From: an uncultured Alphaproteobacteria bacterium
GTDB lineage: Bacteria > Pseudomonadota > Alphaproteobacteria > HIMB59 > GCA-002718135
Direction of reading: 5' to 3'
Assembly (NCBI GenBank): GCA_902619045.1
Contig: CACNCX010000001.1
Coordinates: 592-64,591 of the forward strand
DNA length: 64,000 bases
Below the pieces are notes generated by a model, which ran no database searches, was not told the DNA's origin, and saw only the letters and a program-made list of their open reading frames with translations. Positions within the stretch are counted from its first letter, which is position 1; each line of letters opens with the position of its first letter. Position numbers and translations under genes: made by a program. Below, piece after piece: positions 34,145-50,024 of this stretch.

Positions 34145-35458
34145 CTACAAATATTTATTTAAGATATTTTCCAGATATTCTTGTCTTCCTGAACGAGGTT
34201 CTGGTTCAATATTATCGTCGATTACTTTTTTATTTATATCATCTAATCCAGTATCTTTATTATGAATAAACTGCCCCAAACTTTTATTCCAGTCTTCATA
34301 TCTATCTTCAATAAACTTAGGAATAACATTATCATTCATCATTTTTTCAACAGCAATAAGTGTTTTTGCACAAACATCCATGCCTCCAATATGAGCATGG
34401 AATAAATCTTCAGCATCGATAGATTGTCTTCTTATTTTTGCATCAAAGTTCATGCCTCCTTGGCCTAAGCCGCCATTCTTAAAAATAAAATAAAATGACA
34501 TAATTAAGTCGGCAGGATTATTTGGGAATTGATCCGTATCCCAACCTATCAAAGTATCACCTCTATTAATATCAATACTTCCTAAGGCGCTGTTTGAAGT
34601 AGCGTAAGCAATTTCATGTTCGAAATTATGACCAGATAAAGTTGCATGATTAACTTCAACATTTAGTTTAATCTCATTTTCTAAACCTGCCTTTCGTAAA
34701 AACGCTAAGCAAGTTGCAGAGTCAAAGTCATATTGATGTTTAGTTGGTTCATGAGGTTTTGGTTCTAATAAAATTTGACCTTTAAATCCTATCTTGTGTT
34801 TATAATTAACGACTAATTCTAAAAATCTTTGAAGATTAGCTGTTTCCTTAGTCATGTCAGTATTAAGAATAGTTTCGTATCCTTCTCTTCCACCCCAAAG
34901 AACATAGTTTTGACCACCCAATCTCATCGTTGCATCCATACAATCTTTTACTTGTGCAGCTTTATATGCAAAAACTTCTGGGTCTGGATTGGTAGATGCG
35001 CCACTCATATATCTTTTATGAGAAAAAGCATTTGCTGTTCCCCACAATAATTTCATTCCAGAGTCATTAATTTTTTGTTCCATTAAATCTATAATATGAA
35101 AGAAATTTTTTTGTGTCTCAGCATAATTTGAACCTTCGGGAGAAATATCTCTATCGTGAAAGCAGAAAAAAGGTGTTTTTATTTTAGTGAAAAAATCAAA
35201 TGCAGCATCAAGTTTCATTTCAGCCATTTTCATTTCATCACCTGCTTGCATCCACGGTCTATCAAATGTTTGACCACCAAATGGATCCAAGCCAGGCCAA
35301 GTAAATGTATGCCAATAACAAGTAGCAAACCTTAAATGCTCTTTCATAGACTTGCCTAAAACTTTTTTAGATTCATCATAAAACTTAAAAGCGAATGGGT
35401 TTGTACTTTCTTCGCCTTCAAATTTAATCTCTGGTATTTTACTAAAGTATTCTGTCAT
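34145..35458 (-). CDS. xylA: Xylose isomerase (class II)
   Basis: N-terminal FEGEESTNPFAFKFY...HLRFATCYWHTF, plus the WGGREG and LEPKPHEPTKHQYDFD blocks. Confidence 0.95.
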   Translation of the reverse strand: MTEYFSKIPEIKFEGEESTNPFAFKFYDESKKVLGKSMKEHLRFATCYWHTFTWPGLDPFGGQTFDRPWMQAGDEMKMAEMKLDAAFDFFTKIKTPFFCFHDRDISPEGSNYAETQKNFFHIIDLMEQKINDSGMKLLWGTANAFSHKRYMSGASTNPDPEVFAYKAAQVKDCMDATMRLGGQNYVLWGGREGYETILNTDMTKETANLQRFLELVVNYKHKIGFKGQILLEPKPHEPTKHQYDFDSATCLAFLRKAGLENEIKLNVEVNHATLSGHNFEHEIAYATSNSALGSIDINRGDTLIGWDTDQFPNNPADLIMSFYFIFKNGGLGQGGMNFDAKIRRQSIDAEDLFHAHIGGMDVCAKTLIAVEKMMNDNVIPKFIEDRYEDWNKSLGQFIHNKDTGLDDINKKVIDDNIEPEPRSGRQEYLENILNKYL

Positions 35459-35481
35459 ATGATTTCCTATATTATATTACT

Positions 35482-36195
35482 CTATCTTGATGCCCAAAGT
35501 AAACCACGTTTATAAATTTTATTCATTTGTGGATGGTTTAATTCATGAGCAAAATGACCAAGAGAAATATAAAAAATTTTTCCTTCCCCAATTCGTCTTT
35601 TCCAGGCAACTGGCATTTCTACACCCTTTAACCATTCTGTGGTATATGCGTCACCACTTGATGAACCGGGTTCTTGTTCAAGCTTCCAAACTTCGTTACC
35701 TTTAAATGTCGTCGTTGCTAAAACTTCATTTAATGGATCCACATGCATGTAATATTGCTCTGAATGATAATCAAAATCTTCAATACCTTCCATGATTGGA
35801 TCATCTTTTTTTGTTATATTGACTTTATAATCATGAATACCATTTGGGTGACTTACCCATTGACCACCAGTTAAGAACTGCCAATCAATTGATTGTCTAA
35901 ACGCATCACACATTCCACCGTGATGACCAGCAAGACCACATCCATTATGAACAGCTTTAATAACATTATTAACAGCAGTTTTTTTTATTTCTCCTCTTGG
36001 ATCAAAATGAAAGGCCATCGTCACTATAGGTATAAGCAGATCCATTTCATGAACATAGTCTTCTGCAAATGCAGAAGTTTGATATTCTGCTCTTACTTCA
36101 TATCCTTCAGGCTCAAGCATGCCTTTAATTATTTCAGTACATTTTTCTGGCTCATGTCCTGGCCAACCTCCATAAACAATTAAAGCTTTTTTCAT
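35482..36195 (-). CDS. ThuA-like (trehalose-utilisation / GATase1-like) domain protein
   Basis: 237 aa with N-terminal KALIVYGGWPGHEP and the family-typical layout. Adjacent to a Gfo/Idh/MocA (ThuB-like) gene. Confidence 0.7.
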   Translation of the reverse strand: MKKALIVYGGWPGHEPEKCTEIIKGMLEPEGYEVRAEYQTSAFAEDYVHEMDLLIPIVTMAFHFDPRGEIKKTAVNNVIKAVHNGCGLAGHHGGMCDAFRQSIDWQFLTGGQWVSHPNGIHDYKVNITKKDDPIMEGIEDFDYHSEQYYMHVDPLNEVLATTTFKGNEVWKLEQEPGSSSGDAYTTEWLKGVEMPVAWKRRIGEGKIFYISLGHFAHELNHPQMNKIYKRGLLWASR

Positions 36196-36205
36196 TTTAT
36201 TCCTT

Positions 36206-37351
36206 TCACTTTAATAAATTACTAATCTCATCCTCAGAGAAGTAATTTAAATTTTTAATAGAACTTCTAAGTTCTATTTTTTTATTTTCTTTTGATGATT
36301 TAATAATACTATCTAGTATATCTAAAACGTGAAGACTTAATTCTCCACTACATCTATTTAAACGATTGTTTTTTATTGCATCAACTGTTTCGCTTACACC
36401 TATACCTCTATAGTTAGCAATACCTGCTGATTCATTTGCTTTTTCAGATTTATTTTTAATATTTATTTTACCTAAATTGTTATTCTTGGTATCTATATTT
36501 TCCCAAGCTCCATTTTTTGATTTACAAACTAAAATATCACCGCCAAACATATTTGGATCAGGGATATTTATTGAACCTTTATCACCGTATAACTCGATGT
36601 GATTCTTACTGTGTTTCCAAACATCAAAAGAAAAAAATGAATCAATTAATGCCCCACTCTCAAATTCTATTTGTGAAACTAATGTTGTTGGGATTTCAAC
36701 TTCTATTTCTTGCCCTTGTCTATCGCCACTACCAATAATTCTTTTTTGATAAACTGTTCTTGATTGCGTAAAAACATTTTTCGCAGGACCGAGTAAATTT
36801 ACTAGTGCTGTAAAATAGTATGGACCCATATCAAGAATCGGACCGCCTCCATATTTGTAATAAAAATCTGGATTTGGATGCCAAATTTCATGTCCAGCTA
36901 CACCCATTGAAATACTACCAAGATTTATTTTACCTATTTCATTTTGATCAATAATTTTTTTTGCTTCCTGTATACCAGCACCAAGAAATGTATCTGGGGC
37001 ACAGCCCACATGTAAACCTTTTGAATTGCTTAAATTTACTAACTCTTCACCATGTTCAAACTTTATTGAGAGTGGTTTTTCTGAATAAGAATGTTTTCCA
37101 GCATCAAGAATTGATTTTGAAACTTCAAAATGAACATCTGGTATTGTTAAGTTTATTATTAACTCAATTTCTTTATTAGATAATATCTGGTCTACTGATA
37201 ATTGTTCTACTCCATATTTTTCTGCATAGTTTTTTGCAGCTTCATTTTTAATATCAGCACATGCAACTATTTGAAAATTATTAAAGTACTTCTGGGAATT
37301 TCTGAAATAAATATCAGCAATATTTCCACAACCAATAATTCCTACTTTCAT
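36206..37351 (-). CDS. Gfo/Idh/MocA-family oxidoreductase (ThuB-like), paralog of 57831-58982
   Basis: MKVGIIGCGNIAD Rossmann start. Start moved to the ATG at 37351, 4 nt after the permease stop and preceded by AAGGA. About half identical to the 57831 ORF by eye. Confidence 0.85.
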   Translation of the reverse strand: MKVGIIGCGNIADIYFRNSQKYFNNFQIVACADIKNEAAKNYAEKYGVEQLSVDQILSNKEIELIINLTIPDVHFEVSKSILDAGKHSYSEKPLSIKFEHGEELVNLSNSKGLHVGCAPDTFLGAGIQEAKKIIDQNEIGKINLGSISMGVAGHEIWHPNPDFYYKYGGGPILDMGPYYFTALVNLLGPAKNVFTQSRTVYQKRIIGSGDRQGQEIEVEIPTTLVSQIEFESGALIDSFFSFDVWKHSKNHIELYGDKGSINIPDPNMFGGDILVCKSKNGAWENIDTKNNNLGKINIKNKSEKANESAGIANYRGIGVSETVDAIKNNRLNRCSGELSLHVLDILDSIIKSSKENKKIELRSSIKNLNYFSEDEISNLLK

Positions 37352-37355
37352 AAAA

Positions 37356-38186
37356 CTATTCCTTAACTGCTCCACCTGTTAAACCTGCAACAATATATTT
37401 TTGTAAAGCAAAAAAGAAAACTACTGCTGGAACTAAGGTTAATGAAACATAAGCTAATATTTTACCCCAATCAGTAAAGTACTCACCTCTAAAAACCATT
37501 ATACCCATCGGCCATGAATAAAGAGATTCATCATTAATCATTATAAGAGGCAAAAGGTAATTATTCCAGCTGCCTGTAAGTGTAATAACGCTAACTGTTG
37601 CTAAGATTGGAGTTGATAAAGGAAGAGTAAACCTAAAATAAAATTGGGTATAGCTACAGCCATCACAAACAGCAGCTTCAAATATCTCTTTTGGCATTTG
37701 TCTAAAAAATCCTCGAAAGAGAATTATAGAAAAACCAAGCCCAAATGCAATTTGTGGAATTATAACAGCCCAACTTGTACCCAATAAACCAAAATCACGC
37801 ACTCTTAAAAACAAAGGTAAAATAGCAGTTGCAAATGGAAACATTAGTCCTAGTAAAAAATAATTATAAAGAAATTTATTTGCTGCAAATTTTACATGAG
37901 CAAAAACAAAAGCTGTCATAGAGGCAAATAAGACTACAAAAAAAGTAGTTCCTACTGCGTATACTGTTGAGTTCCATAAAAAAAGCCAGAAATCAGAATT
38001 AATTAAAAGAGATGTATAATTTTCAAACTTCCAGTCTATTGGTAAGCCTAAAGAGTTTGTTCTAAGTTCACCAGTGTGTTTAAAGCCCCCCATTACAGAA
38101 ACGTATAATGGAATAATAATTACTCCTGCTAGAAAAAATAGAAGAAGATACAAATAATAAGTTCTAAAATTTGTTTTCATTATCAT
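37356..38186 (-). CDS. CUT1-type (MalG-like) sugar ABC transporter permease
   Basis: Six TM helices and an EAA loop (FEAAVCDGCSYTQFYFRFTLP). Confidence 0.9.
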   Translation of the reverse strand: MIMKTNFRTYYLYLLLFFLAGVIIIPLYVSVMGGFKHTGELRTNSLGLPIDWKFENYTSLLINSDFWLFLWNSTVYAVGTTFFVVLFASMTAFVFAHVKFAANKFLYNYFLLGLMFPFATAILPLFLRVRDFGLLGTSWAVIIPQIAFGLGFSIILFRGFFRQMPKEIFEAAVCDGCSYTQFYFRFTLPLSTPILATVSVITLTGSWNNYLLPLIMINDESLYSWPMGIMVFRGEYFTDWGKILAYVSLTLVPAVVFFFALQKYIVAGLTGGAVKE

Positions 38187-39063
38187 CCCTCATTAATGTT
38201 CTTTGATAACCAATTGCAATAAATAAACAGATTAAGAATATTACAACTCCAACCGCACTTCCAAAACCAACTTTCATACGCATTACACCAAAATAATATA
38301 AATAAGAAACCATCGAATGCGTTACATTTGAAGGCCCTCCTCCTGTTAGTGGCATAATAATATCAAATAGCTGTAAACTACCTAATAGTGATAAAAATAC
38401 TGAAAGCTTAATTGTCGGAATAAGCATTGGTATTTTAATTCTAAAGGCAGTTGTTATTGGGCCTGCCCCATCTACTTTAGCTGCTTCTAATACTTCTTTT
38501 GAAATAGCTTGCAATCCTGCAATATAAATCATCATGTGAATTCCAAAAAATTTCCAAAATATAACAATTAAAATTGCTACCAATGCCCAATCCTTATCAC
38601 CAAGTACAAATGGTGCCTCTGCACCAAAGAAACCCCAAATTGCAGCAACTAAACCATAATTACCATCATAAATGTATGCCCAGATTAACGCTGTTACTAT
38701 TTCTGCTAAAATAAATGGAAGAAAAAAAACAGTTCTAAAAAAAGCAGCTCCTCTGAGTTTATCTGAAATCATTAAAGCAATTAAAAGAGCAAATGGTAAT
38801 TGAACAAATAATGATATAGCAATTATGTAAAAATTATTTTTGAGTGACATAATAAACACTCTATTTTTGAATAAAAACTCATAATTTTTAAGTCCAACAA
38901 ATTTCTCAGGTGCGCCATAGCCATTCCATCTAAAAAAACTGTAATAGGCTGCTTCACCTATTGGAAGAACTACAAACAAAGTAAATATTGTTAAGGCAGG
39001 TATTAAAAATATTATTATTGTATAATACCTACTAAGTAGTGCATCAAATTTTGCTGATCTCAT
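38164..39063 (-). CDS. CUT1-type (MalF-like) sugar ABC transporter permease
   Basis: EAA loop LEAAKVDGAGPITTAFRIKIP in a polytopic protein. Confidence 0.9.
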   Translation of the reverse strand: MRSAKFDALLSRYYTIIIFLIPALTIFTLFVVLPIGEAAYYSFFRWNGYGAPEKFVGLKNYEFLFKNRVFIMSLKNNFYIIAISLFVQLPFALLIALMISDKLRGAAFFRTVFFLPFILAEIVTALIWAYIYDGNYGLVAAIWGFFGAEAPFVLGDKDWALVAILIVIFWKFFGIHMMIYIAGLQAISKEVLEAAKVDGAGPITTAFRIKIPMLIPTIKLSVFLSLLGSLQLFDIIMPLTGGGPSNVTHSMVSYLYYFGVMRMKVGFGSAVGVVIFLICLFIAIGYQRTLMRDDNENKF

Positions 39064-39072
39064 AGCTATGAA

Positions 39073-39100
39073 CAGGGCTCTTAATTAAAAAAGAGCCCTG
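39073..39100 (-). promoter_or_regulatory. Intra-operon hairpin between the binding-protein and permease genes
   Basis: 10-bp perfect stem cagggctctt/aagagccctg with an 8-nt loop. Only UU follows it on the minus strand, so it is not a full terminator. Confidence 0.6.
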
Positions 39101-39109
39101 ATATTTATA

Positions 39110-40360
39110 TTATTGATTAAATTCCCAAGCTTCTTGAACAGCTTGAGTAGCTTCTTCAGGAGTAATAATTCCTGCCGCTAAATCAGTAGATACGTCATTA
39201 ACAACCCTACCAATATCTGCACCCAAGAACTGATCATAAAATATTTGATGATATTCTGAGTTAGAGATATTTTGTGCAACTTGTTGCAAGAAAGGATTTG
39301 TAAGAGATACATCAGCACCTTTCACGATAGGTATATAAGCACCTTTTCCTGCATCATCTTTTTGAATATCAAGAGATACATAATGCATAATAAATTCAAC
39401 TGCTGAGTCAGGAGCACTGCTTGAGAATAGCCATCCATTTATACCACCAAGTGTATCACCAGCGTCACCGAGACCACCACTCGTCATTGGCATGTTAAAC
39501 ATTCCCATATTATCGTCTCCTAAACCTTCACCACTTGAACTGTTAGCTTTTTGAGAACCATACATCCAGTTACCCATAAGTGCCATTGCACATTTACCGT
39601 CTCCAAAAAAACCTGCCTGATCTGGCCAAGTGTGTGATAAAAATCCTTTTTGAAAAGGTTCTAAAGCAACTAGCTCGAGCATTTGCTCACCTGATTTTAA
39701 GTATTCTGGTCTATCCCAACCACCATTATTAAGTGATTCAAGGAATAATCCTTTTCCACCATTTCTTATGTGGAGGTGTGTCCAAAGAAAGTGAACAGGC
39801 CATTTATCTTTACCACCCATACAAATAGGAGTAATTCCTGCTGCTTTGATTTGTTTTACAGCACTAATTAAATCATCCCATTCTTTGATGGCTGAAACGT
39901 CAACTCCGGCTTGATTGATAAGATCTTTGTTATACCACCAAGCAACTTGTGATACTTGTAAAGGTAAACCTACTCTTTGACCTTCAAATGTAAAAGCATC
40001 TGCTGCTGCTGCACTAACAGTATCCAAATAACTATCTGGTACAACATTGGAGATATCTCTTAAAAAACCAGCTCTGGCTTGATCATACATAACTCCGCCA
40101 CTCCAGCTATAAAATATATCTGGTCTATCATTTGATTGAAGCATTGTAGGTAACTTTGCTTTGAATGATTCATTTTCTAAATACTGCATAACAACAGTGT
40201 GTCCTGTTTTAGCTTCAAATTCTTCAACAGCCCTAACCATGTTAGCATATGAACTTGAGTCTTCACCAAATAAGTGAAGCCACTTTATAGTATCTGCTTT
40301 AACAGAACTAAATGACATCAAAATAGTTAGTGAGAAAAATATTTTTAGTAATAATTTCAT
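39110..40360 (-). CDS. Extracellular solute-binding protein, family 1 (CUT1 sugar ABC)
   Basis: Sec signal MKLLLKIFFSLTILMSFSSVKA, 416 aa, strong SD (GGGAGGA). First gene of the operon. Confidence 0.9.
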   Translation of the reverse strand: MKLLLKIFFSLTILMSFSSVKADTIKWLHLFGEDSSSYANMVRAVEEFEAKTGHTVVMQYLENESFKAKLPTMLQSNDRPDIFYSWSGGVMYDQARAGFLRDISNVVPDSYLDTVSAAAADAFTFEGQRVGLPLQVSQVAWWYNKDLINQAGVDVSAIKEWDDLISAVKQIKAAGITPICMGGKDKWPVHFLWTHLHIRNGGKGLFLESLNNGGWDRPEYLKSGEQMLELVALEPFQKGFLSHTWPDQAGFFGDGKCAMALMGNWMYGSQKANSSSGEGLGDDNMGMFNMPMTSGGLGDAGDTLGGINGWLFSSSAPDSAVEFIMHYVSLDIQKDDAGKGAYIPIVKGADVSLTNPFLQQVAQNISNSEYHQIFYDQFLGADIGRVVNDVSTDLAAGIITPEEATQAVQEAWEFNQ

Positions 40361-40486: not shown

Positions 40487-41992
40487 ATGAAAAATAAACC
40501 AAACATCATTATATTTAATCCAGATCAATGGAGAGGAGATATGCTTGGATATCTTGGTTATCCAGGTGCACAAACCCCTAATTTAGATAATATAATTAAA
40601 GAAGACGCAGTTGCATTTAAGAATGCTTTTTGCCAAGCGACAGTTTGTACACCAAGTCGTTGCTCATTTATGACTGGCTGGTATCCACATGTGCATGGTC
40701 ATAGAACAATGCATTATATGCTACATACTGATCAAGGAGACTCTAGTATTTTATCCGAACTAAAAAATAAAGATTACTTTATTTGGTGGGGTGGAAAAAA
40801 TGATTTGATAGCAGGACAAGAGGGTTATCGTAATCATTGTGATATTTATTTTGAACCAACTGATAGAGATTTTCAAAAATGGGGCTATACTCAACAACCA
40901 GGCACACATGGGGGAGATTTATCATGGCGAGGGCCTGAAGATGGAGATAATTATTATAGTTTCTTCAAAGGAAAATTAGATAAAAAAGATAAAGATATTT
41001 ATTTCGATGACGATTGGTCCATGGTTTATGGAGCATTAGATTTTGTAAAAGATTATAAAGAAGATAAACCATTCTGTTTATTTCTACCACTTGGTTATCC
41101 ACATCCTCCTTACTGTGTAGAGGATCCATGGTTCTCTTCAATTGATCGAAGCGTAATACCTAATAGATATCAATACAAAACTTGGGAAGACAAGCCAAGT
41201 CTTCTAAAAGGAATTATGGATGGGCAAAGAATGCAAGATTGGACCGATGAACGTTGGAATGAATTACGAGCAGTATATCTTGGTATGTGTGCAAGAGTAG
41301 ATTATCAATTTGGACTTTTGGTCAATCAACTTAAAGAAAATAATTTGTATGATGATACTTTAATAATTTTTTTATCTGATCATGGTGACTTTACAGGTGA
41401 TTATAATTTAGTTGAAAAAACACAAAATACTTTTCAAGACTGTCTTACTAATGTTCCTCTTATTATTAAACCGCCAAAAAGTGAAAATACATTAAATGGA
41501 GTAAGCGATACAATGATTGAATTAATTGATATTGCTGGAACCATATATGATTACAGTAATATCGAGCCCTCATATTGGCATTTTGGCAAAAGTATTAAAA
41601 ATTTTATTGAACAGAAAACTGATAATCATAGAGAAGAAGTATTTACGGAGGGTGGTAGACTTAGATTAGAAAGACAAGCAAGTGAAAATCAAAGTCTTCA
41701 ATTACCCCATGGTCTTTATTATCCTAGAGTTAGTTTACAAGGTCAAGAGGATGAAATTTTAATGCATACTAAAGCAACAATGTGCAGAAATAAAAAATTT
41801 AAATATATTAAAAGAGCTTACGAGAAAGATGAGTTTTATAATTTAATCGAAGATCCTGGAGAAATTAATAATGTTATTGATGATCCTAAATATGGGTCAG
41901 AACTTAAAAAACTAAAAGATAAAATGCTTTCATGGTATCAAGAAACTTGTGATGTTGTTCCATTAAAAGGTGATGAAAGAGATTTCAATTAA
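40487..41992 (+). CDS. Cys-type sulfatase (S1 / arylsulfatase superfamily), no signal peptide
   Basis: IIIFNPDQWRGD first strand begins at residue 8. Active-site C-T-P-S-R (VCTPSRCSFMTG). LSDHGD block. Confidence 0.9.
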   Translation: MKNKPNIIIFNPDQWRGDMLGYLGYPGAQTPNLDNIIKEDAVAFKNAFCQATVCTPSRCSFMTGWYPHVHGHRTMHYMLHTDQGDSSILSELKNKDYFIWWGGKNDLIAGQEGYRNHCDIYFEPTDRDFQKWGYTQQPGTHGGDLSWRGPEDGDNYYSFFKGKLDKKDKDIYFDDDWSMVYGALDFVKDYKEDKPFCLFLPLGYPHPPYCVEDPWFSSIDRSVIPNRYQYKTWEDKPSLLKGIMDGQRMQDWTDERWNELRAVYLGMCARVDYQFGLLVNQLKENNLYDDTLIIFLSDHGDFTGDYNLVEKTQNTFQDCLTNVPLIIKPPKSENTLNGVSDTMIELIDIAGTIYDYSNIEPSYWHFGKSIKNFIEQKTDNHREEVFTEGGRLRLERQASENQSLQLPHGLYYPRVSLQGQEDEILMHTKATMCRNKKFKYIKRAYEKDEFYNLIEDPGEINNVIDDPKYGSELKKLKDKMLSWYQETCDVVPLKGDERDFN

Positions 41993-42909
41993 TATAATTC
42001 GTTTTCAATTCTTGTAAGCCAATAGTCGACATCCATTTTCTTGTGACCAGTTAATAACCTCCAAAACTTGACAACATTTATTTTATCAAGTCTATTAGTA
42101 TCTGCTTCTTGCCAAGGATAGGACCTCATTAAAATATCATTGATAGTTTGATCCTTAGTTTCATCAGTCCAATACAAAGCTCGGTTTGGTAAAGGTTGAT
42201 ATTTTTTTTCAGGATCCCATAATAGTTCCTGTTTCTCAGTAGGCTGTAATCTTACTTTAAACATATATCTGATATCATCTGAAAAATTAACTCCAGCACC
42301 ATGCCACAATCCATTATGAAAAATTCCTATTGTACCTGCTTTACATATGATATTTTTTTGTCCTTTTATATTTTGATATTTTGCGATTCCCATTTCATTT
42401 ACAATTCTTAAATGTGTACCAGGAATATATCTTGTACCACCCATTTCTTTAGTAACAGCAGTTGGAAAGTAAAATAATTGGATATCGAAAGTAGTTCTTG
42501 GATCAATTGTGCTATCTTGATGATTAACTTGTGACATTTGTCTTTGATTTGCTTTTGCATAATATTTAGAAGGAAATGTTAAGTGAAGAAATTGATGGTC
42601 AACTACAGTTTTTGAACCAACTAAACTATTGATTGCTCCTGAGACAATTTCATTTTTAAATATTTTTTCCAAAGGAGAGTTTAAAGGGTAGGCATCTTTC
42701 AATGCAGTCCCAGCAGGTATTCTAGGTATACTACTAGAGGATTTTATATTTTGAAAGTAGTGCTGAATATTATCAACATCATCAATATCAGTATGCCCAA
42801 TATCATTTAAAAATTCTTTATTGATATCTTCATCAATTAAACCTTCAAAAAAAAGACAGCCACTATTGGCAAATTCTGCCATTTGCTCAGTTGACAATAA
42901 TTTTGTCAT
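41989..42909 (-). CDS. Phytanoyl-CoA dioxygenase (PhyH)-family Fe(II)/2-oxoglutarate oxygenase
   Basis: H-x-D (VNHQDS), a distal His (GLWHGAG) and Arg (RYMFKVR). 306 aa. Confidence 0.8.
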   Translation of the reverse strand: MTKLLSTEQMAEFANSGCLFFEGLIDEDINKEFLNDIGHTDIDDVDNIQHYFQNIKSSSSIPRIPAGTALKDAYPLNSPLEKIFKNEIVSGAINSLVGSKTVVDHQFLHLTFPSKYYAKANQRQMSQVNHQDSTIDPRTTFDIQLFYFPTAVTKEMGGTRYIPGTHLRIVNEMGIAKYQNIKGQKNIICKAGTIGIFHNGLWHGAGVNFSDDIRYMFKVRLQPTEKQELLWDPEKKYQPLPNRALYWTDETKDQTINDILMRSYPWQEADTNRLDKINVVKFWRLLTGHKKMDVDYWLTRIENELY

Positions 42910-42910
42910 T

Positions 42911-43189
42911 TTAAAAATCTCCTTCTTCTATTTTTTCAAAAAAAAACTCATGCTTTAAATATGAAGTTCTAAATTCTTGACCAGGATGCTCTGGAATAGA
43001 TTGACTCGATTGAAACAATCTCCATCCATCCAATAAAGCGTCAAGACCAGTGGGATAAGGTGGTTCATCACTATCCCCTGTCATATGAAGTTTTTTTCCT
43101 GTCCCATCAAATGTTGCCCAAGAAATAACTTCTGCTTCTAGACTTGGAAACTTTAAATAAAGAACTAAAACTTTTTGTCTTTTAGTCAT
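42911..43189 (-). CDS. Hypothetical 92-aa cytosolic protein
   Basis: ORF track. Its ATG directly abuts the upstream sulfatase stop (TAAATG), and its own stop lies 1 nt before the PhyH ATG. No family recognised. Confidence 0.65.
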   Translation of the reverse strand: MTKRQKVLVLYLKFPSLEAEVISWATFDGTGKKLHMTGDSDEPPYPTGLDALLDGWRLFQSSQSIPEHPGQEFRTSYLKHEFFFEKIEEGDF

Positions 43190-44701
43190 TTAGTTTTCTT
43201 TAAAATAATTTTTTAATAATTCCTTTGGAGGATCATATGTTTTAATTTCATTCAGCATAAGATTTTTATATTTGTTTATCAAATCTTCATCATTAATAGG
43301 GTTTAATTGGCCAGGATCTTCCTTCAAATTATAAAGAGCACATTTAGTATCTTCTAATGATTTATGTGGATCCGATTTTCTAAGAATTCTATTAACTTTC
43401 ATTACTGGAATATTTTTAGTAAAGTTAAATGGCTCATGCATTGTAGCAGTTTGCAACTCTTCGTGTGAAAAAAATTGCCTCATATTGGTTGGCATCAATG
43501 TATATTGAAATCTACTTCTATCGTATTGATCAAAATTTTCTGGAAAATGAAAATATGTATAATTTCCATCGGATATATTTATTCCCCCGCCCCAATATCC
43601 ATACAAAGCAAAATGCTCATTTTCACTGTCTTTATCTAGAAAGTTTAATATAGATTTACCTTTAACCTCTTTAGGAAGATTGTGACCATGCATTGTCATG
43701 AATGTTGGCATCAAATCAATATTTTGAGTTACAACATTTCTTTGCTCGCCAGAATATTGTTTGTATTCCGGGTGATAAAAATAAAAAGGTATATTTGCAA
43801 TTTCATTATACAAAGGCATTCTGTTTTTAGCCCACCAATCATGTTCTCCGAGCATGAAACCATGATCTGTAGTTAAAATCAATGCAGTATCATTCCATAA
43901 ATTATTTTCATCAAAATAATCTAAAACCGTACCAAGTAAATAATCACATAGACCAACTAAAGCAATGTAATTGGCTTTTAACTCTGCAACCTCATCATCT
44001 GTTTCTTTCACTCTATCATACTGAGGCCAATCTAATCTTGGGCCAGTATAATTTGTTTTTAGTTTTTCTCTAAATCGCTCTGGCGCAAAAAAAGGTTCGT
44101 GAGGATCAAAAGTTTCTAGTTGAAGAAACCAATTATCAGCATCTTTATTAATATTTATAAAGTCTAAACCAGATTCAAAACATTTAACTGAAGGAAAATC
44201 TTTTTCTTCTTTAATAAATTCACTATTGATTGCGTAATGATAATAACCTGTTTCCCTATCAGTTAAATTTAATTGTGATTGATGATATTTTTCTCTTAAT
44301 TTTTCAAGTGGTGGTTGAACCATGGCTTTCCACGGGTCACTCTCTTGTCCTCTAATAAAATCCCATGAGTTAAATCTATTATGATAGGTTGCGCCACCAT
44401 CTTCAAAGTAATGATAATGATCAGTCACAAGATGAGTATACGTATTATTTAGTCTTAAGATTTCTGGAAATGAATTATCAAATGGTTCTAATGGACCCCA
44501 TGCACGGTGAAGAAAACTTAATCGACCTGAATGCATATCACGTCTTGCCGGCATACATGGCATACTACCAATATAATGATTATTAAATTGAACTGATTTT
44601 TTTGCTAATCTGTTAAAATTTGGTGTTTCAATATATTTACCACCATAAGAATTTAACATTCTTTTATTTAATGAATCAAATAAAAGAAAAACTGTTTTCA
44701 T
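43190..44701 (-). CDS. Cys-type sulfatase-family protein, variant N-terminal metal motif, no signal peptide
   Basis: C-M-P-A-R (GSMPCMPARRDMHSG). TTDHGFMLGEH block. The first strand reads LLFDSLNKR rather than the usual DD/DQ. Confidence 0.85.
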   Translation of the reverse strand: MKTVFLLFDSLNKRMLNSYGGKYIETPNFNRLAKKSVQFNNHYIGSMPCMPARRDMHSGRLSFLHRAWGPLEPFDNSFPEILRLNNTYTHLVTDHYHYFEDGGATYHNRFNSWDFIRGQESDPWKAMVQPPLEKLREKYHQSQLNLTDRETGYYHYAINSEFIKEEKDFPSVKCFESGLDFININKDADNWFLQLETFDPHEPFFAPERFREKLKTNYTGPRLDWPQYDRVKETDDEVAELKANYIALVGLCDYLLGTVLDYFDENNLWNDTALILTTDHGFMLGEHDWWAKNRMPLYNEIANIPFYFYHPEYKQYSGEQRNVVTQNIDLMPTFMTMHGHNLPKEVKGKSILNFLDKDSENEHFALYGYWGGGINISDGNYTYFHFPENFDQYDRSRFQYTLMPTNMRQFFSHEELQTATMHEPFNFTKNIPVMKVNRILRKSDPHKSLEDTKCALYNLKEDPGQLNPINDEDLINKYKNLMLNEIKTYDPPKELLKNYFKEN

Positions 44702-44732: not shown

Positions 44733-46100
44733 TTAAAGTTTTTTCTTTAATCTATGAAAAGAATCAGGATTTAATCCCATTTGACCAGGATTATTTACAT
44801 TTTTAGCTTTTGTAATTTTAGTTGTTATATTTTCAACTTTTTTAATTTTACTTTTAATCTTTTTTCTTAAGGAGGTTACTATTTCATCATAAGTACTAAT
44901 ACCAATTAAGTTATTTAATTCATACGGATCAGCATCAAGATCGTATAAATTTGTCTCTGTGTATTGATTAGATGAAGGTTTATCACTCCCATTAGAGTCT
45001 TGATCAGCAATACAATATTTCCATTTTTCAGTTCTTAAACTTCTAGCTAATTGACTCTCACTTATTTGAACAAAAATTTCATTTTCCCATTTTTTTGATA
45101 TTTTATTTACCAAGGGCAATACTGATCTACCATCACAATGAGAGGTATTTTTGACTTTTGCCAAATCTAAGATTGTTGCATGAATATCTAATATATTGGT
45201 TAGTTCTTTTATACGTCCACCTTGTTGGAAAACATTTCCAATTAAAGAAGTAGGAACCCGTATTGAACTTTCATGACATGAACGTTTATATTCTCTATTT
45301 CGTGTTTTAAAATTATTTCCATGATCTGATGTAAAAATAATTGCACTATCATCAAATAATTTTAAGCTTTTAATTACATCAATCATTCTTCCATAAGCTT
45401 CATCTATTCTCTTCACCATTCCATAATAACCTCCTAAATGTCGAGGAGAAGATCCAACCAGAGATGAAAGATCTGGAGGAGACCACTTACCTGTATATTT
45501 TTCTCTGTATCCAATAGGTGGTGGATAATCATCTGTATTGTTTTGGTGATGTGGCTCAATAAGAGAAACGAAAAGAAAAAATGGTTTTTTTTGATTTAGT
45601 TTTATAAAATTTATAGCTGCATCAGTTATTGCATCAACTCTATATCCTGGAAGAAATACTTTTTTATTTTGTCCATCATAAACATATGTTTCATAAGCAT
45701 CGGAAGTAAATTCTAAAAGATTTGATCCCAACCAATAATCATAACCACCTCTATCCTCTTTTTTAACCGGTTCAGATGAGCCGAGGTGCCACTTTCCAAT
45801 ATATCCAGTAGCATATCCTTCTTTTGATAAATGTTTTGCAAGAGTTTTAATATTTTTTTTTAAAGGTATTCTATTTTTAAAACATCCAGTCTTTGTTGCA
45901 TACATTCCTGATTGTAATGAAGCTCTTGCAGGCCCACAAACTGGTTGGCATGTAAATGAGTTATAAAGATGTGTACCTTCAACTGCATAATGATCGAAGT
46001 TCTCCATCAAGGATAATGGATTGCCATGTAAACCAGAAGTATCCCAGCGTTGTTGATCAGTAAAAAATACAATAATATTTGGTTTAGATTTAATATTCAT
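44733..46100 (-). CDS. Cys-type sulfatase, no signal peptide
   Basis: IIVFFTDQQRWD, C-G-P-A-R (VCGPARASLQSG), TSDHG. Confidence 0.9.
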   Translation of the reverse strand: MNIKSKPNIIVFFTDQQRWDTSGLHGNPLSLMENFDHYAVEGTHLYNSFTCQPVCGPARASLQSGMYATKTGCFKNRIPLKKNIKTLAKHLSKEGYATGYIGKWHLGSSEPVKKEDRGGYDYWLGSNLLEFTSDAYETYVYDGQNKKVFLPGYRVDAITDAAINFIKLNQKKPFFLFVSLIEPHHQNNTDDYPPPIGYREKYTGKWSPPDLSSLVGSSPRHLGGYYGMVKRIDEAYGRMIDVIKSLKLFDDSAIIFTSDHGNNFKTRNREYKRSCHESSIRVPTSLIGNVFQQGGRIKELTNILDIHATILDLAKVKNTSHCDGRSVLPLVNKISKKWENEIFVQISESQLARSLRTEKWKYCIADQDSNGSDKPSSNQYTETNLYDLDADPYELNNLIGISTYDEIVTSLRKKIKSKIKKVENITTKITKAKNVNNPGQMGLNPDSFHRLKKKL

Positions 46101-46112
46101 TATTATTTAGAT

Positions 46113-47612
46113 TTATTTACTAAAAGGTTTTCCTTTATATTTCCTAAGATTGTCAGCGTGTTTTTTTCTATCTGTTTTTTCAAGACGCTCAACATATGTA
46201 TTCCAGACTTTTGAATAAATATTTGCATGATGAGGACCACCTTCTCTAATTACACCTTGAAGTGGATCTCCTCTATCAGCCTCATACATATTTTCTTCAA
46301 TCCACTCATCGATTAAAAACATACCATGAGCTACGAGATCTTTATGCTGATTTGCTAGGTTATTCAACTCATGCGGATCTTTTTCAATATCAAACAGCAT
46401 ATATTTTGGAAAATCTTTTAAACCAGTATCGTACGTTCTTATTAGTAACCAATTATCCCATCTTACAGATCTTTGACAACTCCAAGCACCATGACTAATA
46501 ACTAAATAATCTCTTCCATTTGATGATTTACTATTTGTTAAATTTTCAGTGAAATTAATACCATCCCATCTGTCAGGTTGAGAAGATGAAGTAATTTGAG
46601 AAATAGTTGAAGTTAAATCTAAATTATAAAATTTATTTTCTATAGTACTTCCTTTATTTGTATCTGTTATCCCCGGCCATCTGATTATTAATGGAACTCT
46701 ATTAGTTATATGATCAGCTGTTTGGTGATCTCCCCATACATTTAACTCACCTTGATTTTCTCCGTGGTCTGCTGAAATAATTATTGCAGTATCATCCCAA
46801 AGATTCATTTTTTTTAAATCTTCAAAAACTTTATTTAAATAAAAATCTGCGTATTTAATTCCAGTGTCATACGCATCAATTTGTTCTTTAGCATCAGAAG
46901 TATTTTTAATTTCGCCCACTCCCATTGTATACTTTCCTCCAAGATCTTCATCAAATCCTGGAACTTCTCTAGCGCTATGCGGTCCAAAACTATTCCTTTG
47001 TTTTTTAATTAATTCTTCTGTCACCCATTCTTCAATAGGATCATCTTTAAAAGGATTTCCAAAGTCTTCAGGTGTATCATACGGAGTATGAGGATCCCAC
47101 ATATTTACATGTAAGAACCAATTTTCTTTTTCTCCATTATTTTCTAACCACTTTTTTATGACAGGGTAGACTTCATCAGCATTTTCTAAACCACCTTTTC
47201 CAGTGTCATACGTTTCGGTAAAACCAAACCAAACTTGATAAGCTGTATGTCTTTCAGGGAAAGGACTGATACTTGCTGTATAATATCCTGCATCTCGAAG
47301 AACTTTTCCAAGAGATGTAAAAGCATATTCTCCTCTTAAGCCGCCTTTAAATTCTCTATTCCAAATATTTTTTCTAGGAGCAATATCAGAGAATTCACCG
47401 CCATGATTAACAACTCCAGTTTTGAAACCAAAATTACCTCCAAACAAAGCAGTTCTACTAGGTAGGCACGGTGTGTCAGTTGAATAAAAATTTGTAAACT
47501 TGACTCCTTCTTTTGCTATTGAATCAATCGTAGGAGACGTATTTCTATGATAACCATAACATCCTAAGTGATCAGGTCTTAAAGAGTCTATGTCTACGTA
47601 TAAAATTCTCAT
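46113..47612 (-). CDS. Cys-type sulfatase-family protein, variant N-terminal metal motif, no signal peptide
   Basis: MRILYVDIDSLRPDH, C-L-P-S-R (TPCLPSRTALFGG), SADHGEN. Confidence 0.85.
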   Translation of the reverse strand: MRILYVDIDSLRPDHLGCYGYHRNTSPTIDSIAKEGVKFTNFYSTDTPCLPSRTALFGGNFGFKTGVVNHGGEFSDIAPRKNIWNREFKGGLRGEYAFTSLGKVLRDAGYYTASISPFPERHTAYQVWFGFTETYDTGKGGLENADEVYPVIKKWLENNGEKENWFLHVNMWDPHTPYDTPEDFGNPFKDDPIEEWVTEELIKKQRNSFGPHSAREVPGFDEDLGGKYTMGVGEIKNTSDAKEQIDAYDTGIKYADFYLNKVFEDLKKMNLWDDTAIIISADHGENQGELNVWGDHQTADHITNRVPLIIRWPGITDTNKGSTIENKFYNLDLTSTISQITSSSQPDRWDGINFTENLTNSKSSNGRDYLVISHGAWSCQRSVRWDNWLLIRTYDTGLKDFPKYMLFDIEKDPHELNNLANQHKDLVAHGMFLIDEWIEENMYEADRGDPLQGVIREGGPHHANIYSKVWNTYVERLEKTDRKKHADNLRKYKGKPFSK

Positions 47613-47628
47613 CTTTATCCTTTCTTAA

Positions 47629-49170
47629 TTAAGCACCTGAAACTCTTTTCATTTTAGATGTTTCATCTTTTAATGTGGCTTGCGCAAACTTAAATAATAA
47701 ATCTTTTTTTAATGTTTGTGCATTCGTATTGTCCCATAAATTATTATATTCGTTTGGATCATTTTCTAAATCAAAAAGTTCACCGTAATTAGCTTCTCGG
47801 TAAATAGAAATTTTATAATTATCATTTATGTAAGTTTTTAAATGAGGCATTCTTGGATTATGTCTATTTTCAACAAATATATGTGATCGGATACTTTCCT
47901 TATTACCATAAAATACTTCTGTTTGATCCACTCCTTGCATTTGAGTTGGTATATCAATGCCCGCGACTTTTAAAAATGTTGGGGCAAGATCAACTAAACT
48001 TAATAAAGATGAAGATGATGAATTTTGAGGAACTTTATCTGGCCATCTAACAATAAATGGTAAACGGAGCATGTCTTCATAGTGAAAAGGTCCTTTAGCA
48101 ATTAGACCATGCTGTCCTATAAAGTGACCATGATCAGTAGTAAAAATAATTATGGTATTATCAAGTTCACCCATTTGATCTAACTTATTAATTATTTTTC
48201 CAATATTCTTATCCATAAAACTAACCATGCCATAATAAATTGCCATGTCTTTTTTTAATTCTTCCAAAGGATACAGATGACTCATACATCCATGAGCGTT
48301 AAATGGTGAATGCCAATTTTCGAAATCAGGATTTTTCGTTTGTGTTTTTCCAAAATGAGGTGGATTTAATTCGTGCTCACCTTCTTTTAAAGTTCCAGGT
48401 GACATATCTTCTGGATTATACATTGATGCCCATGGTTCACTTAATACGTATGGTGGGTGTGGATCTTGAAAACTTGTCCAAAGAAAAAATGGCTTGTCAT
48501 CTTTTTGTTGATCTAAAAATTCAATTGATCTTTCAGCGGTCCAGTTTGTGTAGTGATGTTTTTCGTCTAACTTCCAAACCCTATCCGGTCTCGCCCAGTA
48601 GTCATATTCGCGAGCAATAGGAGGAGCGTATTTAGAAGTTTCACCAGGCACTGGTTGAAAATATTCTTTCCAATCACTAAGACCGTTTTGTTCCATCCAA
48701 ATTGCATAATGTTGACCTACATGACTTTCATCAGCATGATTACGTGCTAACTCAATATGTTCAAAGCCATACCAAGGTCCTTTAAAATTTTTCCAAAATT
48801 CCAAATCTCTTAAAGTTGGTTGTCCTTCTATAGATTCCTGACCTGGAACTGAAGTTAATGGCTGGAAATGTGCTTTACCTATTAACCCAGTTGAATATCC
48901 ATTTTTGTATAAAAGTTCTCCAATAGTTTCTACTTCTTCATCTAATTTAACTCCAATTGTCCAAGCTCCATGAGAAGACGGATATTGTCCAGTAATAATA
49001 CTTGCTCTTGATGGCGTGCAAACTGGTGATGGACAATAAGCTCTTGTAAAATTCATTCCCTCGTCACAAAGCTTATCTAAATACGGTGTTTGTATTTTTG
49101 AATTAAATTTTCCAATAGTATCATGATGTTGTTGATCGGAAGTTATTAATAAAATATTTGGCCTTTTCAT
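47629..49170 (-). CDS. Cys-type sulfatase, no signal peptide
   Basis: ILLITSDQQHHD, C-T-P-S-R (VCTPSRASIITGQYP), TTDHGH. Confidence 0.9.
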   Translation of the reverse strand: MKRPNILLITSDQQHHDTIGKFNSKIQTPYLDKLCDEGMNFTRAYCPSPVCTPSRASIITGQYPSSHGAWTIGVKLDEEVETIGELLYKNGYSTGLIGKAHFQPLTSVPGQESIEGQPTLRDLEFWKNFKGPWYGFEHIELARNHADESHVGQHYAIWMEQNGLSDWKEYFQPVPGETSKYAPPIAREYDYWARPDRVWKLDEKHHYTNWTAERSIEFLDQQKDDKPFFLWTSFQDPHPPYVLSEPWASMYNPEDMSPGTLKEGEHELNPPHFGKTQTKNPDFENWHSPFNAHGCMSHLYPLEELKKDMAIYYGMVSFMDKNIGKIINKLDQMGELDNTIIIFTTDHGHFIGQHGLIAKGPFHYEDMLRLPFIVRWPDKVPQNSSSSSLLSLVDLAPTFLKVAGIDIPTQMQGVDQTEVFYGNKESIRSHIFVENRHNPRMPHLKTYINDNYKISIYREANYGELFDLENDPNEYNNLWDNTNAQTLKKDLLFKFAQATLKDETSKMKRVSGA

Positions 49171-49172
49171 AT

Positions 49173-50024
49173 TTACCCTTTTACAGCTCCTTGAACACCT
49201 TCAACAAAATATTTTTGCATAAACAAAAACAAAATAATTATAGGCAGAATAGTTATAACAGACGCAGCTGCCATACCAGACCAATCAACAAAGTATTCAC
49301 CTTTAAAAGCGTACACACCTACAGATAGTGTTCGTATATCAGGATTACCTAATGTGATGACGACTGGTAATAAGAAGTCATTCCATGCATGCAAAACTTG
49401 TAGAATAGAAACTGTGGCTACTACTGGTTTGGTTAAAGGTAACATAATTGAAATAAATGTTCGAACAAAACCCGCTCCATCCATTTTAGCTGCTTCTTCA
49501 AGCTCTACAGGTACTCTCGAAAAATATCCTGCAAACAATAAAATATAAATTACAGGGGTGTGTCCTGCTGTTGCGAGTGTTAATCCGATTAAGTTTTTAG
49601 ATATATTCAAATTATTTAATAAATCAAAAACAGGAATAATTGTGTAACCTTGAGGAATAAAAATTGTACCAATTAAAATTCCAATAAGTATTTTTTTTCC
49701 TGGAAAAGAATATCTTCCAATTACGTAACCAAACATACCAGTTGTTACGACAACTATAATTACGGAGACAACTGTAATAATAAGGGTATTAAAAAAATAT
49801 CTGCCCATATTAGCGCCAAACCATGCTCTTTCAAAATTTTCCCAAACAAGTCGGTCAGGGATTAAGCCTAAGCCTCCCCAAATTTCAAAATCAGTTTTGA
49901 ATGAGGCTGAAAGCACCCAAAGTAATGGATAGATCCAAAAGAAAGAGAAAATAATAAAAGCTATTGTTATAATTAAATATTTAACTTGGTTTTTTTCAGC
50001 AATGAAATTTAGGTATTTACTCAT
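49173..50024 (-). CDS. CUT1-type (MalG-like) ABC transporter permease
   Basis: EAA loop LEEAAKMDGAGFVRTFISIMLP. Start moved to the ATG at 50024 (MSKYLNF...), which overlaps the upstream stop as ATGA. The Cys-rich extension in the track lies inside the upstream gene. Confidence 0.9.
   Translation of the reverse strand: MSKYLNFIAEKNQVKYLIITIAFIIFSFFWIYPLLWVLSASFKTDFEIWGGLGLIPDRLVWENFERAWFGANMGRYFFNTLIITVVSVIIVVVTTGMFGYVIGRYSFPGKKILIGILIGTIFIPQGYTIIPVFDLLNNLNISKNLIGLTLATAGHTPVIYILLFAGYFSRVPVELEEAAKMDGAGFVRTFISIMLPLTKPVVATVSILQVLHAWNDFLLPVVITLGNPDIRTLSVGVYAFKGEYFVDWSGMAAASVITILPIIILFLFMQKYFVEGVQGAVKG

What the first reader, a model, noticed from the sequence alone, without database searches (positions are those of the whole stretch)
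41989..44701. Tightly coupled trio: variant sulfatase, 92-aa unknown protein and PhyH dioxygenase
The sulfatase stop and the 92-aa ORF start abut (TAAATG at 43187-43192). The 92-aa stop lies 1 nt from the PhyH ATG (TAA-A-ATG at 42907-42913). Packing this tight implies co-translation and matched dosage. The PhyH protein keeps an intact H-x-D...H...R set. Fe(II)/2OG oxygenases can cleave sulfate esters oxidatively; AtsK, of the TauD family, is the precedent. A PhyH-family member here could therefore be an oxidative desulfating or hydroxylating partner for the hydrolytic sulfatase, with the 92-aa protein as an adaptor of unknown type.
Basis: inference. Interest (0 to 1): 0.6.

Follow-up and report, generated by a model that had tools for sequence, protein, structure and literature searches.

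The report
Two-subunit PhyH oxygenase beside SAR11 sulfatases
The 92-aa ORF is a real, highly conserved protein that is the constant partner of one branch of iron/2-oxoglutarate oxygenases across many bacterial phyla, and the sulfatase next to it is a lineage-specific neighbour rather than part of a conserved trio.

Summary
On the minus strand, a 503-aa Cys-type sulfatase, a 92-aa ORF and a 306-aa PhyH-family protein are joined by TAAATG and TAA-A-ATG. The PhyH protein keeps H130-x-D132, H203 and R214. Tight packing means little here, because 21 of 52 same-strand junctions in this window are 1 nt or less.

The conserved unit is the pair, not the trio. The 92-aa protein has no Pfam, NCBIfam or PDB match. 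It is under strong purifying selection (dN/dS 0.02-0.07) and is 60-70% identical from SAR11-type cells to Streptomyces, Caulobacter, Gammaproteobacteria and Myxococcota. In all 101 loci examined it sits next to a PhyH-clade gene on the same strand, in either order. At least 15 protein clusters are natural fusions of the small domain, a linker and PhyH.

A sulfatase lies within 6 kb in 28 of 33 SAR11-type loci but in only 5 of 68 others. Twelve of 27 SAR11 single-cell loci have an ABC importer directly upstream of the pair instead.

Best reading: an undescribed two-subunit Fe(II)/2OG oxygenase. In this genome it sits inside a cassette for importing and desulfating a carbohydrate-like compound. 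The substrate is unknown. Oxidative desulfation is possible but untested.

The parts
42911..43189 (-). 92-aa small subunit of an unnamed family: four beta-strands and two long conserved loops, with core motif RQxVLxLYL...W..YDG...G...PPY.TG..AL.DGWRL...G.E...K.EF.FE
   Evidence: 579 homologues and 339 clusters at 50% identity. No Pfam, NCBIfam or PDB match. dN/dS is 0.02-0.07 and variable sites by codon position are 14/4/65. AF2 pLDDT 83, with no Foldseek match in the PDB.
41989..42909 (-). Catalytic subunit: PhyH-fold Fe(II)/2-oxoglutarate oxygenase (306 aa) with H130-x-D132, H203, R214 and a conserved C-terminal helical extension
   Evidence: PF05721 at 45.4 bits. Invariant residues shown. 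Only remote PDB relatives by sequence: SptF E 2e-3, human PHYH E 7.5e-4 with a profile. The fusion homologue's fold matches SptF, AndA, TlxI, FtmOx1 and KanJ at 15-19% identity.
42907..42913 (-). TAA-A-ATG junction between the small subunit and PhyH
   Evidence: Equivalent spacings of -8 to +9 nt in other phyla.
43187..43192 (-). TAAATG junction between the sulfatase and the small subunit
   Evidence: Kept in 15 of 27 SAR11 single-cell loci. In the other 12 an ABC permease gene takes this position.
43190..44701 (-). Cytoplasmic Cys-type S1 sulfatase (503 aa, CMPARR, no signal peptide); a lineage-specific upstream neighbour
   Evidence: PF00884 E 5e-28. Nearest PDB relatives are phosphonate monoester hydrolases and GlcNAc-6-sulfatase. 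Orthologues (about 80% identity) occur only in SAR11-type loci.
44733..49170 (-). Three further cytoplasmic Cys-type sulfatases (455, 499 and 513 aa) in the same transcription direction
   Evidence: Spacers are 31, 12, 16 and 2 nt.
49173..52513 (-). Sugar-type ABC importer heading the operon: SBP_bac_1 with a TAT signal plus two permeases, and a hairpin after the binding-protein gene at 50943-50969
40487..41992 (+). Fifth sulfatase (501 aa), convergent with PhyH; its 3' end overlaps the PhyH 3' end by 4 nt
   Evidence: Conserved in most SAR11-type loci.
34145..40360 (-). Second sugar-type ABC importer (39110-40360, 38164-39063, 37356-38186), followed by GFO/IDH/MocA oxidoreductase (36206-37375), ThuA (35482-36195) and a xylose-isomerase-like TIM barrel (34145-35458)
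   Evidence: The GFO-ThuA-TIM set directly follows small-PhyH in loci L019 and L029.

Best explanation
The 92-aa protein and the PhyH protein form one enzyme: a two-subunit Fe(II)/2-oxoglutarate oxygenase. PhyH is the catalytic double-stranded beta-helix subunit. It binds iron through H130, D132 and H203, and binds 2-oxoglutarate through R214. The small beta-rich protein is its obligate accessory subunit. I infer that it completes or covers the substrate site, much as a dimer partner does in related PhyH-fold enzymes. This two-gene module is autonomous and widespread. In this SAR11-type genome it lies at the end of a nine-gene operon (binding protein, two permeases, four cytoplasmic sulfatases, small subunit, PhyH). 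That operon sits beside a second importer, a fifth sulfatase and a GFO/ThuA/TIM-barrel keto-sugar set. Here the enzyme most likely oxidises an imported, sulfated or just-desulfated, carbohydrate-like compound, either by hydroxylation or by oxidative removal of a substituent. Shown: gene reality, conservation, obligate pairing, natural fusions, an intact catalytic motif and the genomic context. Inferred: physical complex formation, the role of the small subunit and the substrate class.
For: The pair is adjacent on the same strand in 92 of 92 loci found through the small protein. The same holds in 3 of 3 loci found through distant PhyH-clade members and on a Streptomyces plasmid. Both gene orders occur, which rules out simple inherited synteny. 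At least 15 clusters are fusions of small domain, linker and PhyH (400-439 aa). They share 55-83% identity, come from independent assemblies and lie on contigs up to 668 kb. The fused domains keep the core motif. The AF2 model of a fusion has pLDDT 85 and pTM 0.84, with only the linker disordered. No other neighbour is conserved except a divergent AraC regulator in 31 actinobacterial loci. The catalytic residues are invariant. A carbohydrate theme recurs elsewhere: GMC/GFO oxidoreductases, MR_MLE plus TIM barrel plus GFO, an L-fucose-type cluster, sugar ABC transporters with LacI, and GFO plus TIM barrel plus iol genes.
Against: There is no direct evidence of a complex. The loops of the small domain stay at pLDDT 55-70 in the fusion model. 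The small protein is much more conserved than the enzyme (median 63% against 36% identity, in 70 of 70 loci), which is unusual for a purely accessory subunit. Most non-SAR11 contexts are heterogeneous, with 97 Pfam families among 100 neighbours. Carbohydrate genes lie near the pair in only about 20% of those loci, so the substrate class is weakly constrained.
Confidence: 0.72

Rival explanations
1. Sulfatase, 92-aa protein and PhyH form a three-way functional unit. The small protein is an adaptor between the two enzymes, and PhyH performs AtsK-like oxidative desulfation alongside hydrolytic desulfation.
For: The three genes abut in the window and in 15 of 27 SAR11 single-cell loci plus Pelagibacteraceae MAGs. 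A few Streptomyces loci place the pair next to sulfatases and a sugar ABC importer. A ketone product of oxidative desulfation would suit the adjacent GFO/ThuA/TIM-barrel genes. From my own knowledge, AtsK shows that 2OG oxygenases can cleave sulfate esters.
Against: No sulfatase lies within 6 kb in 63 of 68 non-SAR11 loci, and none within 10 kb in 5 SAR11 loci. The upstream gene is swapped for an ABC permease in 12 of 27 SAR11 loci. The Streptomyces sulfatases are not orthologues. Every fusion joins the small domain to PhyH, never to a sulfatase. PhyH has no TauD/AtsK-family match.
Confidence: 0.12
2. The small protein is the substrate of PhyH, making this a protein hydroxylase and its dedicated target. 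Candidate sites are the invariant P44, Y45, D39, D54, R57 and K79. The modified protein would be the functional product.
For: The small protein is far more conserved than the enzyme. Its most conserved residues lie in two exposed loops of lower pLDDT.
Against: Covalent fusion of an enzyme to its only substrate would give a single-turnover system, yet such fusions are maintained in many lineages. The contexts are catabolic, with AraC or LacI regulators and transporters. Y45 is replaced by Val in two fusion clusters.
Confidence: 0.08
3. The pair is a sulfatase-maturing system: an O2-dependent generator of formylglycine from the CxPxR cysteine, serving the five cytoplasmic Cys-type sulfatases.
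For: No FGE motif and no radical-SAM CxxxCxxC motif occurs in any window ORF of 150 aa or more, although five Cys-type sulfatases are present. No FGE or anSME domain was found among the genes scanned between 28 and 63 kb. The pair sits inside the sulfatase operon.
Against: Most genomes carry the pair with no nearby sulfatase. SAR11 variants keep the pair with no sulfatase within 10 kb. From my own knowledge, Streptomyces already has a canonical FGE. A 64-kb window cannot show that a maturase is absent from the genome.
Confidence: 0.04
4. The small protein regulates or inhibits PhyH, or acts as a chaperone needed only for folding, and is not part of the active enzyme.
For: It has no recognisable catalytic residues and is always co-encoded.
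Against: Stable fusions and slower evolution than the enzyme argue for a permanent structural role rather than conditional regulation.
Confidence: 0.04

Closest known systems
PhyH / phytanoyl-CoA dioxygenase family (PF05721), e.g. human PHYH, SptF, AndA, PrhA, FtmOx1, KanJ
   Same: Same double-stranded beta-helix fold. The HxD...H iron triad is present, and an Arg lies 11 residues after the distal His. The Pfam score is above the gathering threshold, and Foldseek matches reach E 1e-11.
   Different: Identity to any solved member is only 15-19%. The clade has its own conserved C-terminal helical extension. It always comes with a roughly 90-aa partner or N-terminal domain, which no characterised member has.
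TlxI/TlxJ heterodimeric Fe(II)/2OG dioxygenase (PDB 7vbq)
   Same: A PhyH-fold oxygenase that works as a heteromer with a co-encoded partner. It is among the top structural matches.
   Different: In TlxIJ both subunits are full-size oxygenase folds. Here the partner is a 92-aa four-stranded protein with no detectable relatives.
MbtH-like proteins of non-ribosomal peptide synthetases (analogy, from my own knowledge)
   Same: A small (about 70-90 aa), very conserved, non-catalytic partner. It is encoded next to its enzyme and is sometimes fused to it.
   Different: There is no sequence or family relationship: no PF03621 hit appears even at E up to 10. The partner enzyme class is also different.
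AtsK alkylsulfatase, TauD family (from my own knowledge)
   Different: It belongs to a different family (PF02668), which the window protein does not match. AtsK has no small partner, and no activity data exist for the window protein.
Formylglycine-dependent S1 sulfatases and phosphonate monoester hydrolases
   Same: The upstream 503-aa protein has PF00884, the CxPxR motif and the DHG...GEH block.
   Different: It is cytoplasmic, with no signal peptide. Its N-terminal half is divergent (an FDS motif in place of the SDQ/TDQ of its neighbours). No maturase gene is visible in the window.

Membership tests
PhyH family (PF05721) Fe(II)/2OG oxygenase | Profile match above the curated threshold | tested here: met
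   45.4 bits against a cut-off of 22, residues 40-214
PhyH family (PF05721) Fe(II)/2OG oxygenase | HxD...H iron-binding triad plus a 2OG-binding Arg after the distal His | tested here: met
   H130, D132, H203 and R214 are invariant across six phylum-spanning partners. The His-to-Arg spacing of 11 matches human PHYH (from my own knowledge).
PhyH family (PF05721) Fe(II)/2OG oxygenase | 2OG- and Fe(II)-dependent substrate oxidation | not testable with these tools
   Needs an enzyme assay
TauD/AtsK family (PF02668) oxidative sulfatase | Profile match to the TauD family | tested here: not met
   PF05721 is the only Pfam hit at E up to 0.01, and there is no NCBIfam hit
TauD/AtsK family (PF02668) oxidative sulfatase | 2OG-dependent release of sulfate from sulfate esters | not testable with these tools
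   Needs an enzyme assay
S1 formylglycine-dependent sulfatase (43190-44701) | PF00884 match and a C/S-x-P-x-R nucleophile motif | tested here: met
   E 5e-28; the sequence C-M-P-A-R is seen
S1 formylglycine-dependent sulfatase (43190-44701) | A maturase (FGE or anSME) available to form formylglycine | tested here: inconclusive
   None is detectable in the 64-kb window. The rest of the genome was not seen.
   A sulfatase lies within 6 kb in 28 of 33 SAR11-type loci but in only 5 of 68 others, and those are not orthologous
Small+PhyH two-gene module (proposed here) | Adjacency in both search directions, in either gene order, plus natural fusions | tested here: met
   92 of 92 loci, 3 of 3 reverse look-ups and 15 fusion clusters
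Small+PhyH two-gene module (proposed here) | Physical complex of the two proteins | not testable with these tools
   Only the summary of the fusion model was available (pTM 0.84). There was no PAE, no coordinates and no multimer run.
MbtH-like protein (PF03621) | Profile match | tested here: not met
   No hit in 60 family members at E up to 10

The most novel reading that the evidence does not exclude
The small protein and its PhyH partner are an undescribed, obligately two-subunit class of Fe(II)/2OG oxygenase. In abundant SAR11-type bacteria it oxidatively removes a sulfate (or methyl) substituent from imported algal carbohydrate-like compounds that the hydrolytic sulfatases cannot handle. 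The ketone product would feed the adjacent GFO/ThuA/TIM-barrel enzymes. This would add a new enzymatic route to marine sulfated-organic-matter turnover.
Probability: 0.15. Interest if true: 0.75.

Novelty: new variant of a known kind. Interest (0 to 1): 0.55.

Why it matters
A roughly 90-aa protein family has gone unnamed. It has no Pfam, NCBIfam or PDB entry and is labelled 'hypothetical' wherever a source names it. Yet it is present in at least 535 species-level genomes, is very abundant in marine metagenomes, and is more conserved than the enzyme it accompanies. Recognising it as the fixed partner of one PhyH clade has a practical consequence. Attempts to express or assay these 'phytanoyl-CoA dioxygenase family' proteins alone are likely to fail or mislead, so both genes should be annotated and studied together. 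For SAR11 biology, the module sits in a cassette-variable region that also holds cytoplasmic sulfatases and sugar-type importers. This points to the use of small sulfated organic compounds by streamlined oligotrophs.

Tried and rejected
- **Annotating the 92-aa protein.** I tried Pfam at E up to 10 on 60 members, NCBIfam, PDB sequence and profile searches, and Foldseek against the PDB. None gave a meaningful hit. The 12 weak PM2_P3 hits (best E 0.0018) are treated as noise.
- **Apparent extra fusions.** Very long open frames in L050, L054, L065 and L087 looked like PhyH-to-small fusions. They are spurious high-GC open frames upstream of a normal start. P0260, P0253, P0261 and P0286 look frameshifted and were not counted.
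- **First fusion alignment.** Alignment A4 misplaced the small proteins inside the PhyH region. It was rebuilt as A5 after local tests.
- **Neighbourhood clustering.** The first run timed out and was redone on a filtered set.
- **Other conserved neighbours.** Only an AraC regulator in Actinobacteria recurs. In other lineages 100 neighbours gave 97 Pfam families.
- **Literature.** Five searches covering SAR11 or Pelagibacter with sulfatase, PhyH or formylglycine, and 2OG oxygenases with small partners, found nothing on this module.
- **RNA and signal scans.** The Rfam scan found nothing. Promoter-like and terminator-like counts were no higher than in shuffled sequence: promoter-like sites were fewer (59 against a mean of 69.3) and terminator-like sites about equal (6 against 6.7).


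Full report
**1. The observation**

The minus strand carries a 503-aa sulfatase (43190-44701), a 92-aa ORF (42911-43189) and a 306-aa PhyH-family protein (41989-42909). The sequence shows TAAATG at the first junction. It shows TAA-A-ATG at the second, preceded by a GAAGGAG ribosome-binding-like motif. Pfam assigns PF00884 to the sulfatase and PF05721 to PhyH, and nothing to the 92-aa ORF. NCBIfam agrees. The PhyH protein has H130-x-D132, H203 and R214, all invariant in partners from other phyla.

The inference from tight packing is weak. The window has about 31% G+C and is about 97% coding. Its median same-strand spacer is 6 nt, and 21 of 52 junctions are 1 nt or less. Abutting genes are the rule here.

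**2. Setting in the window**

The three genes end a nine-gene, co-directional block. It runs from a TAT-signal SBP_bac_1 binding protein (50981-52513) through two permeases and sulfatases of 513, 499, 455 and 503 aa to the small protein and PhyH. Spacers are 0-45 nt apart from one 88-nt overlap between the two called permease ORFs (the downstream one has a TTG start), and the only terminator-like hairpin lies just after the binding-protein gene.

A fifth sulfatase (40487-41992) converges on PhyH. A second sugar-type ABC importer follows (37356-40360). Next come a GFO/IDH/MocA oxidoreductase, ThuA and a xylose-isomerase-like TIM barrel (34145-37375), and then the housekeeping genes ribF, ileS and lspA.

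All five sulfatases have CxPxR and none has a signal peptide, so desulfation would be cytoplasmic. No FGE-type or radical-SAM-type maturase is visible in the window.

**3. The 92-aa ORF is a real and unusually conserved protein**

A database search gave 579 homologues. Those from Streptomyces, Actinorhabdospora, Pelagibacteraceae and Deltaproteobacteria are 60-70% identical over the full length. A profile search of 1.84 billion cluster representatives found 339 clusters.

The closest loci (100% identity) are marine single-cell genomes labelled 'uncultured Alphaproteobacteria'. Pelagibacteraceae MAGs carry the same arrangement.

Among these SAR11-type loci dN/dS is 0.02-0.07, and variable sites fall 14/4/65 by codon position.

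The family has no Pfam, NCBIfam or PDB relative, by sequence or by profile. The AF2 model (pLDDT 83) is a four-stranded sheet with one short helix and two long loops that hold most of the invariant residues. Foldseek finds nothing in the PDB (best E 0.6).

**4. The conserved unit is small+PhyH, not the trio**

- **Adjacency.** I built HMMs from the window proteins and searched six-frame ORFs of 92 loci that encode the small protein. Every locus has a PhyH-clade ORF next to it on the same strand.
- **Gene order.** The order is small then PhyH in proteobacterial lineages and PhyH then small in Actinobacteria. Called spacings range from -8 to +9 nt.
- **Reverse test.** I looked up three distant PhyH-clade proteins that were not chosen through the small protein. 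All three have the small gene immediately upstream, including one that the gene caller had missed.
- **Fusions.** At least 15 protein clusters of 400-439 aa are natural fusions of small domain, a roughly 30-residue linker and PhyH. They share 55-83% identity, come from independent assemblies and NCBI genomes, and lie on contigs up to 668 kb. The fused domains keep the core motif of the free protein.
- **Fusion model.** An AF2 model of one fusion has pLDDT 85 and pTM 0.84, with only the linker disordered. I could not inspect the interface because coordinates and PAE were not available.
- **Fold.** The PhyH part matches PhyH-fold enzymes (SptF, AndA, TlxI, FtmOx1, KanJ) at E about 1e-11 but only 15-19% identity.

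**5. Sulfatases are facultative neighbours**

| Locus group | Sulfatase within 6 kb of the pair |
|---|---|
| SAR11-type | 28 of 33 |
| Actinobacteria | 5 of 38 |
| Other lineages | 0 of 30 |

The actinobacterial sulfatases are only 25-30% identical to any of the window's five, so they are not orthologues of the upstream sulfatase.

Within the 27 SAR11 single-cell loci, the upstream sulfatase abuts the small gene in 15. In the other 12 an ABC importer (binding protein plus two permeases) takes that position. Five of those loci have no sulfatase within 10 kb.

The only other recurrent neighbour anywhere is a divergently transcribed AraC-family regulator in 31 actinobacterial loci. In the remaining lineages, 100 neighbouring proteins hit 97 different Pfam families.

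**6. What it probably does**

The pair behaves as one enzyme: a PhyH-fold Fe(II)/2OG oxygenase with an obligate small subunit. Related PhyH-fold enzymes depend on a dimer partner to shape the active site, and TlxI/TlxJ is a heterodimer (PDB 7vbq, among the structural matches). By analogy, I infer that the small subunit completes or covers the substrate site.

The substrate is not identified. A carbohydrate or cyclitol theme recurs in a minority of contexts:

- SAR11: sugar-type ABC importers with GFO, ThuA and a TIM barrel.
- One MAG: small, PhyH, GMC oxidoreductase, Gluconate_2-dh3, GFO.
- Another MAG: aldo-keto reductase, small, PhyH, MR_MLE, TIM barrel, GFO.
- A fusion inside an L-fucose/rhamnose-type non-phosphorylative cluster.
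- A fusion behind LacI and a sugar ABC importer.
- A Streptomyces plasmid: alkaline-phosphatase-family protein, AraC, PhyH, small, GFO, TIM barrel, iolDBC.
- Streptomyces: sugar ABC importer, two sulfatases and a 436-aa protein of unknown family, with no Pfam match.

Such genes lie near the pair in only about one fifth of non-SAR11 loci. Some contexts look lipid- or xenobiotic-related instead, with P450, SCP2 and acyl-CoA enzymes. For this window, the most economical reading is oxidation of the compound that the operon's importer brings in and its sulfatases act on.

Nothing here tests it, and the enzyme is not of the TauD/AtsK family.

**7. Rivals**

- **Adaptor linking sulfatase and PhyH.** Contradicted by the distribution and by the fusions.
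- **Protein substrate.** This would explain why the small protein is more conserved than the enzyme (median 63% against 36% identity to the window, in 70 of 70 loci). It fits poorly with the maintained fusions and the catabolic contexts.
- **Formylglycine-generating role.** Attractive only because no maturase is visible in the window. It conflicts with the many sulfatase-free contexts.
- **Regulator or chaperone.** Not favoured by the fusions or by the strong constraint.

**8. Unexplained**

The reason for the extreme conservation of the small subunit is not explained. There is no invariant Cys or His. The invariant residues are W24, D39, Y45, D54, W56, R57, E72, K79, E81 and E85.

**9. Novelty and verdict**

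I found no description of this module in five literature searches. The family is absent from Pfam, NCBIfam and the PDB. The enzyme is a new variant of a known kind: a 2OG oxygenase with a dedicated small subunit.

Its refutation test on protein-level conservation is passed, and its co-occurrence test fails for the trio but holds for the pair. Interest is moderate at 0.55. The structural-genomic finding is solid and widely applicable, and it touches SAR11 use of sulfated organic matter, but the chemistry remains open.

Noticed in passing
window 53034-57719 (-): A second, more canonical PhyH gene (54032-54979, Pfam E 1e-30) has no small partner. It lies between a fatty-acid-desaturase-family gene (53034-54017) and a ribose-type ABC importer (ATPase 54982-55719, permease 55722-56702, binding protein 56754-57719). 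Pelagibacteraceae locus L004 has the same set as FA_desaturase-PhyH-FA_desaturase.
   Followed up: partly
L012-L038 compared with window 43190-52513: The region directly upstream of small-PhyH varies by cassette among SAR11-type single-cell genomes. It holds the 503-aa sulfatase in 15 of 27 loci and a binding protein plus two permeases in 12 of 27. Blocks of three sulfatases are present or absent, and a 686-aa GHL6 glycosidase-like gene appears in L020 and L029. The downstream GFO-ThuA-TIM barrel-ribF-ileS set is constant, so the pair sits at the edge of a hypervariable region.
   Followed up: partly
window 1-64000: Five cytoplasmic Cys-type sulfatases are present, but no ORF of 150 aa or more has an FGE-like (LPTEAEWE, RGGS) or radical-SAM CxxxCxxC motif. 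No FGE or anSME Pfam domain was found among the genes scanned between 28 and 63 kb. How these sulfatases are matured is open, since the rest of the genome was not seen.
   Followed up: partly
window 50943-50969 and 39073-39100: A G+C-containing hairpin lies immediately downstream of each of the two ABC binding-protein genes and ahead of the permease genes. This would fit attenuation that gives more binding protein than permease.
   Followed up: no
L100 (Streptomyces sp. NBC_00316 plasmid NZ_CP108024.1) 5376-16593: The pair (AraC, PhyH, small) lies between an alkaline-phosphatase-family gene and a convergent Gfo/Idh/MocA gene, a TIM-barrel gene and the inositol catabolic genes iolD, iolB and iolC. 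This hints at a cyclitol or keto-sugar link in at least one actinomycete.
   Followed up: no
L099 4298-5059: In one MAG the small-PhyH pair is followed by a second, distantly related PhyH gene of 253 aa, which scores only 25 bits against the partner-clade HMM.
   Followed up: no
P0403, P0414; L036: There are two likely database errors. JGI labels two PhyH-clade proteins 'ribosomal protein S27AE'. A 5.6-kb contig binned as Flavobacteriales (L036) is 91% identical to the SAR11-type locus, which suggests a binning error.
   Followed up: no
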